Assembly: GCF_009914755.1 (NCBI RefSeq)
Contig: NC_060943.1
Direction: 5' to 3' (one strand)
Length of the DNA: 64,000 nucleotides
Source: the human T2T-CHM13v2.0 reference genome, Homo sapiens
The translations under genes and the position numbers were made by a program. The notes under the pieces were generated by a model. It had not been told where the DNA came from, made no database searches, and saw nothing but the letters and a program-made list of their open reading frames with translations. Position 1 is the first letter of the stretch. Every line of letters begins with the position of its first letter. Positions 40,120 through 40,635 of this stretch are shown here, piece by piece.

Positions 40120-40635
40120 TGGTGTCCTTATTTCTTGGGAAAGGATACAGAGGGTCAGAGAGGCGCCCCAGCTTGTGCAGGAATGCATTCCTGAGATCTG
40201 GCCTGGCCGTGGTCACTGGAGTGTTTACTCTGCTTACAGGGTCTGGTGTAGTGGGGGATGGCTGGGTAGGAACGTGCGGGCTATAAAGCCAGACCCCAGG
40301 TGTCAGTGCGGTTCAGAAAGCAACTAGCACAGCCATGCCCAGGCCAGGACCCGTGACACAGCGATGCTCTCAGATGCTGCTGATGTTACAGATGTTGTTG
40401 GGGGCACCCTGAGGGGGCACCCTGACTCTGCAGGTGAGAACCTTCTGGGGTTCCTAGGACCCTCGGACAAGCACTCTGATCCGGATGACTCCAGGTCCCA
40501 GGAGTTGCAGAAACGCCACCAGGACCTTCAGAGCACCAGTTAGACAAGGAGAGCCAGGAGGAGCTGGGCCCCAACCTCATCCAAAAGCACAGGTGAGCTC
40601 TGAGACCTCCACCCCCAGGACAGCCCCCATGTCTA
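40120..40635 (+). pseudogene. Degenerate partial duplicate of GDF15 promoter, exon 1 and intron start (GDF15 pseudo-exon 1)
   Basis: Collinear with 44077-44664: TATAAAG 40282, GCACAGCCATGCCC with ATG 40335, 66/96 nt identity over the first 32 codons without gaps, TGA at codon 26, donor AG|GTGAGC at 40592/40593. Confidence 0.85.

What the first reader, a model, noticed from the sequence alone, without database searches (positions are those of the whole stretch)
40120..40635. Hidden tandem duplicate of the GDF15 promoter and exon 1, ATG exactly 4000 bp upstream
Seen: this stretch is collinear with the real GDF15 5' end. Upstream, tggtgtccttatttcttgggaaaggatacagagg matches tggtgtcctcatatcgaggaagaggatactgagg. 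Both have CTATAAAG (40281 vs 44273) and GCAAC..GCACAGCCATGCCC (ATG 40335 vs 44335). The first 32 codons align without gaps (66/96 nt by hand count): [31 protein letters not shown] vs MPGQELRTLNGSQMLLVLLVLSWLPHGGALSL, with TGA in place of His26. After a 1-nt deletion the homologous frame reads [26 protein letters not shown] vs FPGPSELHS--EDSRFRELRKRYEDL. The donor AG|GTGAGC (40592) and the intron start ccacccccaggacagcccccatgtcta also match. No exon 2 copy was seen. Inference: an old partial tandem duplication, i.e. a GDF15 pseudo-5' end. I am not aware of this being described, but I cannot check the literature.
Basis: seen in the sequence. Interest (0 to 1): 0.88.

Follow-up and report, generated by a model that had tools for sequence, protein, structure and literature searches.

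The report
Old GDF15 promoter–exon 1 duplicate
About 4 kb upstream of the human GDF15 gene lies a decayed old copy of its promoter and first exon, which was once an active gene start and today looks like a neutrally drifting relic that supplies the splice donor of a minor GDF15 transcript.

Summary
Window 40121-40635 (plus 39154-39172 across two later Alu insertions) is collinear with 44052-44664, which is the GDF15 core promoter, exon 1 and the first 53 nt of intron 1. Identity is 362/508 (71%). The local score is 99, against at most 17 in 300 dinucleotide shuffles. The similarity is not confined to a MIR fragment. There is no exon 2 copy. The coding frame is dead: TGA at codon 26 and two 1-nt deletions.

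A new result is a third copy on chromosome 1, with an A18 tail and target-site duplications. It is a processed retrocopy of a spliced mRNA that joined this duplicate's exon 1' to the alternative terminal exon of PGPEP1 (27846-28090). So the duplicate once had a working promoter and splice donor.

Since that retroposition the duplicate has collected as many private changes as the retrocopy (20 vs 21 of 260 sites), which points to neutral decay. The copy is CpG-depleted and has lost half of the p53 element.

The duplication predates the catarrhine/platyrrhine split and is probably of primate-stem age or older.

The retained donor is used by a RefSeq GDF15 model whose leader is 946 nt long with 12 upstream ATGs.

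One puzzle remains: the donor now lies downstream of its partner acceptor. I found nothing in print on any of this.

The parts
39154..39172 (+). 5'-most piece of the duplicate. It pairs with 44052-44070 and is separated from the rest by two later Alu insertions.
   Evidence: with the two Alus (39173-39811 and 39814-40120) taken out, the local alignment runs from 39154/44052 straight into the body. The target-site duplication of the first Alu block lies at 39163-39172 and 39802-39811.
39048..39069 (-). Inverted copy of the 5' junction sequence. It is followed by T14 and an Alu-like fragment of about 75 nt (39070-39153).
   Evidence: 20/21 identical to the reverse complement of 44061-44081 (z 8.1). 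One search shows it carries the variant base of the upstream copy, so it derives from that copy.
40121..40185 (+). MIR-like upstream part of the duplicate, paired with 44078-44148.
   Evidence: the two are each other's best hit (41/54, E 4e-7). Weaker hits to several other places in the window mark it as repeat-derived.
40194..40334 (+). Promoter remnant and 5' UTR of the duplicate, with the TATA box at 40281-40288.
   Evidence: TATA is 8/8 identical. A 17-nt identical block lies at 40217-40233. CpG observed/expected is 0.36, against 0.51 in the parent.
40329..40348 (+). Homologue of GDF15 p53 response element site 2. The first half-site is intact and the core of the second is broken.
   Evidence: The parent 20-mer at 44329-44348 is listed as the GDF15 p53 site in passages of PMC2666794 and PMC6696488. 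The copy was read.
40335..40592 (+). Pseudo-exon 1'. It has its ATG at 40335, TGA at 40410-40412, 1-nt deletions near 40431 and 40535, a 27(+1)-nt deletion at its 3' end, and the donor at 40592.
40593..40635 (+). Copy of the first roughly 50 nt of GDF15 intron 1. The homology ends here.
   Evidence: 39/48 identical. One search finds no extension downstream.
39920..40592 (+). First exon of the second RefSeq GDF15 transcript. It starts inside an Alu and ends at the retained donor.
   Evidence: Hub annotation table. Alu interval. Leader analysis.
44052..44664 (+). Parent segment: GDF15 promoter from -251, exon 1 (44303-44611) and 53 nt of intron 1.
27846..28090 (+). PGPEP1 alternative terminal exon. 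A copy of it forms the 3' half of the chromosome 1 retrocopy.
   Evidence: 76% identity over 236 nt. The junction sits exactly at the annotated acceptor, and the poly(A) tail at the annotated 3' end.

Best explanation
A 613-bp piece of GDF15 was copied and placed about 2 kb of non-Alu DNA upstream of itself, on the same strand. The piece ran from -251 of the promoter, through exon 1, to +53 of intron 1. This happened before the catarrhine/platyrrhine split, probably on the primate stem or somewhat earlier.

The copy kept a working TATA promoter and 5' splice site for a long time. An mRNA that started just downstream of its TATA box was spliced from exon 1' to a PGPEP1-type terminal exon and polyadenylated. 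It was then retrotransposed to chromosome 1, roughly in early anthropoid times.

Since then the chr19 copy has drifted neutrally. It gained a stop codon, two frameshifts and a 5-nt insertion before the donor. It lost CpGs and the second half of the p53 element. It was also split by Alu insertions.

Today it makes no GDF15-like protein. Its one visible role is passive. The retained donor and surrounding DNA form a 673-nt non-coding first exon of a minor GDF15 transcript model. That model splices into 44062 and carries a 946-nt leader rich in upstream ATGs.

Shown here: the homology, its limits, the lesions, the retrocopy and its junctions, and the equal private change counts. Inferred: the dates, the duplication mechanism, and present-day neutrality of the promoter part.
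For: Homology and its limits. No exon 2 copy in the window.

Copy number:
- The genome holds only three exon-1-like copies at this tool's sensitivity.

The chr1 copy:
- It has target-site duplications of about 20 bp, an AATAAA signal and an A18 tail.
- Its 5' end lies 10-17 nt upstream of the ATG position, which is about 32-43 nt downstream of the start of the TATA box.
- Its exon-exon junction falls at the donor position homologous to the real GDF15 donor, and exactly at PGPEP1 acceptor 27846.

Relationship of the three copies:
- chr1 vs the duplicate is 215/266 identical. chr1 vs real is 170/264, and duplicate vs real is 175/264.
- The duplicate and chr1 share the 27(+1)-nt deletion.
- Site patterns over 260 columns are 61 shared, 20 private to the duplicate and 21 private to chr1.
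- Together they form a clade with support 100/99 in the protein tree.
- None of the disabling lesions is shared.

Signs of decay:
- CpG observed/expected is 0.23, against 0.60 in the parent. K2P distance is 0.38, with transitions 76 and transversions 72.
- Conservation is not clumped (permutation p = 0.32, 0.51, 0.17).

Age:
- Alu-Alu pairs in the window are 77-86% identical, against 66-71% for the duplicate, and Alus interrupt it.
- The copy keeps two codons that all 7 sampled primate GDF15 proteins lack, but that colugo, squirrels and laurasiatherians have.
- AU tests reject placing the paralogue pair inside catarrhines (p = 0.021), and reject the single copy beside human GDF15 alone (p = 0.022).
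Against: In today's order the donor (40592) lies 12.7 kb downstream of the acceptor (27846) on the same strand. The chimeric mRNA therefore cannot arise by ordinary cis-splicing from the present arrangement. No second copy of the PGPEP1 exon exists between the copies or anywhere else in the genome except chr1.

The date is soft:
- AU tests do not reject the paralogue as sister of anthropoids (p = 0.215) or of primates (p = 0.204). The test groups were named after a first tree had been seen.
- The tree rests on 96 columns.
- An Alu-like fragment at the 5' junction, where the parent has only T7 plus CCTCC, may mean that an Alu predates the duplication.

Neutrality is inferred from three human sequences only, with no cross-species conservation data. 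A RefSeq transcript does use the donor, and TATA, the ATG context and the donor are all still intact. A small regulatory role is therefore not excluded.
Confidence: 0.8

Rival explanations
1. The copy is a maintained regulatory element. It would act as an alternative promoter and first exon that tunes GDF15 output, for example through upstream transcription across the main promoter or through a uORF-laden leader.
For: The hub's RefSeq table has a transcript with exons 39920-40592 and 44062-44611, and the second exon covers the main promoter. The TATA box (8/8), the ATG context (14/14) and a consensus-like donor are retained. The leader has 12 upstream ATGs, including the 25-codon relic ORF.
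Against: Since the retroposition the copy has as many private changes as the processed pseudogene (20 vs 21 of 260 sites). Identity is not clumped. CpG is depleted to 0.23. The core of the second p53 half-site is broken. The annotated start lies in an Alu rather than at the TATA box. The known GDF15 enhancers lie at about -11 and -20 kb, not at -4 kb (passages of PMC7192610).
Confidence: 0.12
2. It is the remnant of a complete second GDF15 gene made by whole-gene tandem duplication, as afrotherians have. Exon 2 would have been deleted later.
For: Two full-length GDF15 paralogues share a contig in manatee and in aardvark. The copy's ORF has no lesion shared with the chr1 retrocopy, so it stayed open for some time.
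Against: Homology stops 53 nt into the intron and at -251, with unique DNA beyond. AU tests reject grouping the copy with afrotherian paralogue B (p = 0.0002) or paralogue A (p = 0.042). Both afrotherian paralogues sit in one afrotherian clade. The only recorded mRNA of the copy joins exon 1' to a PGPEP1-type exon, not to a GDF15 exon 2. The shared 28-nt loss shifts the exon-end phase from 1 to 0, out of frame with GDF15 exon 2.
Confidence: 0.08
3. The similarity is chance, low complexity, or only a shared MIR fragment.
For: The first 50-60 bp of both copies are MIR-like and hit several other places in the window weakly.
Against: The z-score is 65 against shuffles. The 486-bp core (44179-44664) has one strong match in the window, the copy (E 1e-36), plus the collinear intron-start piece. 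The other listed hits are short and have E 0.24-4.6. Collinearity runs through TATA, ATG, signal peptide, donor and intron start. Protein-level similarity to GDF15 orthologues reaches 47% over 79 columns.
Confidence: 0.01

Closest known systems
Unprocessed (duplicated) partial pseudogenes that keep the parent's promoter and first exon. An example is the ROCK1 partial duplicate 'Little ROCK' (PMC2867973, seen only in a search listing and abstract).
   Same: It is a DNA-level copy with promoter and intron sequence. It lacks the remaining exons, carries disabling lesions and is still transcribed.
   Different: It is very short (613 bp) and local (about 4 kb upstream, same strand). It is far older and more diverged (about 70%). 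Its donor is now spliced back into the parent gene.
Chimeric retrocopies of intergenically spliced mRNAs, such as hominoid PIPSL, made from a PIP5K1A-PSMD4 read-through transcript.
   Same: The chr1 element is an L1-type insertion with target-site duplications and an A-tail. It preserves an exon-exon junction between two neighbouring genes.
   Different: Here the 5' partner lies downstream of the 3' partner in today's genome, so simple read-through cannot explain it. In addition, the 5' partner is a pseudo-exon and not the functional gene.
Lineage-specific GDF15 gene duplications (afrotherian GDF15 and 'GDF15-like' models).
   Same: They involve the same locus and the same direction of local duplication.
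   Different: The afrotherian copies are full-length and form their own clade. Orthology with the human copy is rejected.

Membership tests
Duplicated (unprocessed) pseudogene fragment of GDF15 | Significant homology to the parent that includes non-coding parts (promoter, intron) | tested here: met
   promoter 115/154, TATA-to-ATG 41/54, intron start 39/48.
Duplicated (unprocessed) pseudogene fragment of GDF15 | Reading frame disabled | tested here: met
   TGA at codon 26 and two 1-nt deletions.
Duplicated (unprocessed) pseudogene fragment of GDF15 | Evolves like neutral DNA | tested here: inconclusive
   Private change counts equal those of the retrocopy (20 vs 21), and conservation is not clumped. 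No cross-species data were available.
Strict tandem duplication | The two units abut, or the spacer and flanks are themselves duplicated | tested here: not met
   About 1.6 kb of non-Alu spacer and both outer flanks have no homologue.
Processed pseudogene / retrocopy (chromosome 1 element) | Intron-less exon junction, poly(A) tail after a poly(A) signal, and target-site duplications | tested here: met
   The junction sits at the donor-homologous position and at acceptor 27846. AATAAA, A18 and direct repeats of about 20 bp are present.
Active alternative promoter / first exon of GDF15 | Transcription start driven by the copy's own TATA box, and splicing from its donor | not testable with these tools
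   Donor use is annotated (hub table), but the annotated start (39920) lies in an Alu. No CAGE or RNA data were available here.
p53-responsive GDF15 promoter | Complete 20-bp p53 response element (site 2) | tested here: not met
   The first half-site is identical. The second has a broken CWWG core (compared with the element quoted).
Orthologue of the afrotherian GDF15-like paralogue | Groups with one afrotherian paralogue in a tree | tested here: not met
   AU p = 0.0002 for paralogue B and 0.042 for paralogue A.

The most novel reading that the evidence does not exclude
The upstream copy was for tens of millions of years the 5' end of a separate, expressed primate gene. That gene would have been a chimera of GDF15 exon 1' and a PGPEP1-type terminal exon, encoding a secreted peptide of about 85-93 residues made of the GDF15 signal peptide and the prodomain N-terminus. 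It died only after the anthropoid stem. Its order-reversed exon junction would record either a lost larger tandem duplication of the PGPEP1-GDF15 interval or a natural trans-splicing event fossilised by L1. The relic may still dampen or tune GDF15 through upstream transcription.
Probability: 0.15. Interest if true: 0.65.

Novelty: new member of a known kind. Interest (0 to 1): 0.45.

Why it matters
GDF15 is the hormone behind pregnancy sickness, cancer cachexia and part of metformin's effect, and non-coding variants around it are heavily studied.

A decayed second promoter and exon 1 at -4 kb matters in four ways:
- It explains an odd annotated upstream exon.
- It marks about 0.5 kb of upstream DNA that should not be read as an independent enhancer merely because it carries GDF15 promoter motifs.
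- It shows that the N-terminus of anthropoid GDF15 is derived. The relic keeps ancestral states such as MPRPGP and two codons that are missing in all seven primate GDF15 sequences sampled.
- Together with the chromosome 1 retrocopy, it gives datable markers for the history of the PGPEP1-GDF15 interval.

It does not change what is known about GDF15 protein function.

Tried and rejected
Searches for more duplicated sequence:
- Extension of the homology beyond the copy. 46 Smith-Waterman comparisons of non-Alu flanks on both strands were run. Only the 21-nt inverted junction piece exceeded z = 4.
- A second PGPEP1 terminal exon, or any duplicated spacer, between the copies. The only hit was one 39-nt match at E 0.16.
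- Further copies in the window with a 3-sequence nhmmer profile. Only the two known copies were found.

Attempts to decide open questions:
- Clumped conservation as a sign of constraint was not significant.
- The divergence of the retrocopy's 3' half was compared to ask whether it came from today's PGPEP1 exon or from a lost duplicate. K2P is 0.29, against 0.21 for the 5' half. The identities are 0.763 +/- 0.028 and 0.821 +/- 0.024, so the result is inconclusive.
- Orthology of the extra exon-1-like piece in a Camelus ferus gene model with the human copy was tested. That piece is nearest to camel's own GDF15 (27/43) and not to the human copies (12/23 and 20/43), so the idea was dropped.
- RT template switching as the origin of the chimera was judged unlikely, because both sides of the junction fall on splice sites. 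It is not excluded.

Calls that yielded nothing:
- The search of earlier findings was not open.
- Osada et al. 2007 (PMC1975780) is not held.
- Two literature searches returned only off-topic papers because of my term settings.

Full report
THE OBSERVATION

I read both regions.
- CTATAAAG at 40281 and 44273.
- The ATGs at 40335 and 44335.
- 66/96 identical bases in the first 32 codons.
- TGA in place of His26 (40410-40412).
- A 1-nt deletion after codon 32, with the homologous frame resuming.
- The donor at 40592.
- A matching intron start.

A global alignment of the two stretches has 362 identical bases of 508 aligned, with 104 gap columns. The local score is 99. For 300 dinucleotide-preserving shuffles the mean is 12.1, the sd 1.3 and the maximum 17.

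I then masked everything that recurs four or more times in the window, which is essentially the Alus. After masking, the copy's only matches with E <= 1e-4 are two collinear pieces in GDF15. A third collinear piece (40593-40635 with 44616-44664) has E 0.27, and three other short matches have E 0.27-0.72.

The first 50-60 bp of both copies are indeed MIR-like and hit several other places weakly. The 486-bp core (44179-44664), however, has one strong match, the copy, besides the collinear intron-start piece and some short hits with E 0.24-4.6.

tblastn with the 308-aa GDF15 protein finds the pseudo-exon (aa 40-73, E 0.001) and no exon 2 copy anywhere in the 64 kb.

LIMITS OF THE COPY

I ran 46 Smith-Waterman comparisons of the non-Alu flanks, on both strands. 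They show no extension, apart from a 21-nt inverted match discussed below.

The 3' end of the homology is 53 nt into intron 1 (40635/44664). That is 43 nt short of MIR3189.

The 5' end is not at 40120 as it first seems. Two Alu insertions, 39173-39811 and 39814-40120, split the copy. The first has a 9-of-10 target-site duplication. With both removed, the alignment continues to 39154, which pairs with 44052. The duplicated unit is therefore 613 bp of the parent (44052-44664).

About 1820 bp of the DNA between the copies is Alu, so the exact 4000-bp spacing is accidental. The remaining roughly 1.6 kb of spacer has no homologue upstream. This is therefore not a simple head-to-tail tandem repeat.

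The 5' junction is complex:
- At 39048-39069 there is an inverted copy of the junction sequence. It is 20/21 identical to the reverse complement of 44061-44081 and carries the variant base of the upstream copy.
- It is followed by T14 and an Alu-like fragment of about 75 nt.
- At the same spot the parent has only T7 plus CCTCC.

I could not decide whether an Alu fragment was already present before the duplication.

A THIRD COPY AND WHAT IT SHOWS

A search of the window's own genome with the copy found a third match, at G000:C1:26480630-26480910 on the minus strand. It is 78% identical to the copy, while the real exon 1 scored 66%. Searches with the real exon 1 and with the chr1 piece found no further copies.

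The chr1 element spans about C1:26480373-26480900 and has the anatomy of an L1-made retrocopy:
- direct repeats of about 20 bp on both sides;
- an AATAAA signal;
- an A18 tail.

Its 5' half is exon 1':
- It begins 10-17 nt upstream of the ATG position, which is about 32-43 nt downstream of the start of the copy's TATA box.
- It ends at the position homologous to the real GDF15 donor.
- Compared with it, the chr19 copy now has five extra bases before its GT.

Its 3' half is 76% identical over 236 nt to window 27846-28090:
- That segment is the alternative terminal exon of PGPEP1 in the hub's table.
- The match starts exactly at the annotated acceptor.
- It ends at the annotated poly(A) site.
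- This exon has only these two copies in the genome.

The source RNA was therefore a spliced, polyadenylated chimera of exon 1' and a PGPEP1-type terminal exon.

The source of the 5' half was the upstream copy's lineage and not GDF15 proper:
- Over 260 ungapped columns, 61 sites are shared by the chr19 copy and chr1 against GDF15. Twenty are private to the chr19 copy and 21 private to chr1.
- The two share a 27(+1)-nt deletion at the 3' end of the exon.
- They form a clade with support 100/99 in the protein tree.
- They share replacements at positions that are conserved in all orthologues.

None of the disabling lesions is shared:
- The stop and both frameshifts are private to chr19.
- The lost start codon and a +4/-4 pair of indels are private to chr1.

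So the copy had a working promoter, a working donor and probably an open 85-codon frame when the retrocopy was made.

THE PUZZLE

Today the donor (40592) lies 12.7 kb downstream of the acceptor (27846) on the same strand. Ordinary cis-splicing cannot join them in that order.

I see three possible ways out:
1. A larger duplication once placed a second PGPEP1 terminal exon downstream of the copy and was later lost. That loss could have been by unequal crossing-over or by Alu-mediated deletion.
2. The RNA was made by trans-splicing.
3. Reverse transcriptase switched templates. This is unlikely, because both sides of the junction fall on splice sites.

The retrocopy's 3' half is somewhat more diverged from today's PGPEP1 exon (K2P 0.29) than its 5' half is from the chr19 copy (0.21). 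That is the direction expected for a lost duplicate exon, but the difference is not significant. This point stays open.

AGE

The K2P distance between the copy and its parent is 0.38, or 0.32 without CpG sites. Transitions are about equal to transversions.

Alu-Alu pairs in the window are 77-86% identical, and Alus interrupt the copy. The duplication is therefore older than those Alus.

The search for homologous proteins with the exon 2 translation returned 104 mammalian GDF15 proteins. I aligned the exon-1-encoded part of 51 of them together with human GDF15. The other 53 were fragments, unnamed entries or extra species. Two odd gene models, Tupaia P0025 and Camelus ferus P0072, were left out of the trees.

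Read with X at each break, the pseudo-exon shows these features:
- It is 33/80 codons identical to human GDF15.
- Its best match is slow loris, at 47% over 79 columns.
- It begins MPRPGP, as loris does.
- It keeps two codons that all 7 sampled primates lack, but that colugo, squirrels and laurasiatherians have.

The trees (51 and 52 rows, 96 columns) place the copy lineage in the unresolved base of Boreoeutheria. It falls outside the anthropoid clade (99/99) and outside Afrotheria.

AU tests gave the following:

| Grouping tested | p |
|---|---|
| Copy beside human GDF15 alone | 0.022 (rejected) |
| Copy pair inside catarrhines | 0.021 (rejected) |
| Copy with afrotherian paralogue B | 0.0002 (rejected) |
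| Copy with afrotherian paralogue A | 0.042 (rejected) |
| Copy pair as sister to anthropoids | 0.215 (not rejected) |
| Copy pair as sister to primates | 0.204 (not rejected) |

The test groups were named after I had seen a first tree, which weakens these p-values.

The private branches since retroposition are about 0.08 substitutions per site (20 and 21 of 260). The remaining branch carries 61 of 260. Using primate neutral rates recalled from general knowledge, I infer retroposition at roughly 35-45 My and duplication at roughly 70-90 My. These are estimates and not measurements.

IS THE COPY DOING ANYTHING NOW?

Evidence against selection:
- The private change counts equal those of the processed pseudogene.
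- Identity is not clumped (permutation p = 0.32, 0.51, 0.17).
- CpG observed/expected is 0.23, against 0.60 in the parent.
- The well-known p53 element that overlaps the GDF15 ATG keeps only its first half-site in the copy. That element is quoted in passages of PMC2666794 and PMC6696488.
- The functionally tested p53/ATF enhancers of GDF15 lie about 11 and 20 kb upstream, not at -4 kb (passages of PMC7192610).
- A MIR-associated Pol III element described for the GDF15 promoter lies at -447 to -437, outside the duplicated unit (passages of PMC4480132).

Evidence for a residual role:
- The hub's RefSeq table lists a second GDF15 transcript with exons 39920-40592 and 44062-44611.
- Its first exon starts in an Alu, runs through the whole relic and ends at the retained donor (CAG|GTGAGC).
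- Its second exon covers the main promoter.
- The leader is 946 nt long with 12 upstream ATGs, among them the 25-codon relic ORF.

My reading is passive exonisation of a relic. A small regulatory effect is not excluded.

WHAT IS KNOWN

The full-text searches were:
- GDF15 with exon 1, duplication and pseudogene.
- GDF15 with gene duplication and primates. This gave 17 papers, none on this topic to judge by the 16 listed titles and abstracts.
- The phrases GDF15P1, GDF15 pseudogene, GDF15 paralog, GDF15 duplication and duplication of GDF15. Each had 0 occurrences. Only 'GDF15-like' appeared, mostly in sea urchin papers.

A recent evolutionary review of pregnancy sickness contains no word starting with duplicat, paralog or pseudogene (find in PMC12542990).

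The library lacks most subscription journals. I could not see GENCODE or the pseudogene catalogues, and I read no supplements. 'Not in print' therefore holds only for these searches.

VERDICT

This is a real, old, partial duplicate of the GDF15 5' end. It was once the start of an expressed chimeric transcript and is now a decaying relic whose donor is reused. It is a new member of a known kind, the partial unprocessed pseudogene, and it has an unusually informative retrocopy fossil and one unexplained exon-order problem.

Noticed in passing
G000:C1:26480373-26480900 (minus strand); loci L002 and L004: A chimeric processed pseudogene. It joins GDF15-like exon 1' to the PGPEP1 alternative terminal exon, and has an A18 tail and target-site duplications of about 20 bp. 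Its exon order is the reverse of today's genomic order on chr19.
   Followed up: yes
Proteins P0080/P0081, P0084/P0086, P0077 and P0083: Afrotherians (manatee, aardvark, elephants) have two full-length GDF15 paralogues, in two species on the same contig. Both types fall in one afrotherian clade (95/85), so this is a separate, lineage-specific duplication.
   Followed up: partly
Protein P0072 (Camelus ferus, 327 aa): This gene model strings two exon-1-like pieces together, which hints at a duplicated GDF15 exon 1 in camels too. The extra piece is nearest to camel's own GDF15 (27/43), so it is probably an independent event or a model artefact.
   Followed up: partly
window 44045-44081: The acceptor of the alternative GDF15 exon (44062) sits in a T-run followed by a short Alu-like stretch. 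The paralogous AG in the upstream copy is at 39162-39163. The comparison with the Alu sequence is from memory.
   Followed up: no
window 39048-39153: An inverted 22-nt copy of the duplicate's 5' junction is followed by T14 and an AluJ-like fragment of about 75 nt. The junction sequence and its inverted copy flank the Alu fragment as inverted repeats, not direct ones. This could be a trace of a replication-based rearrangement.
   Followed up: partly
Protein P0004 (Saimiri, 356 aa) and window 44245-44334: The long squirrel-monkey model is an in-frame upstream read-through of the canonical promoter and 5' UTR. It is not a use of the pseudo-exon. In human the same frame is closed by a stop at 44242.
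   Followed up: no
window 40364-40543 and 40485-44244 (spliced): In the alternative transcript model the longest upstream ORFs are 59 and 96 codons. The 96-codon ORF crosses the 40592>44062 junction in the GDF15 frame and stops at 44242-44244.
   Followed up: no
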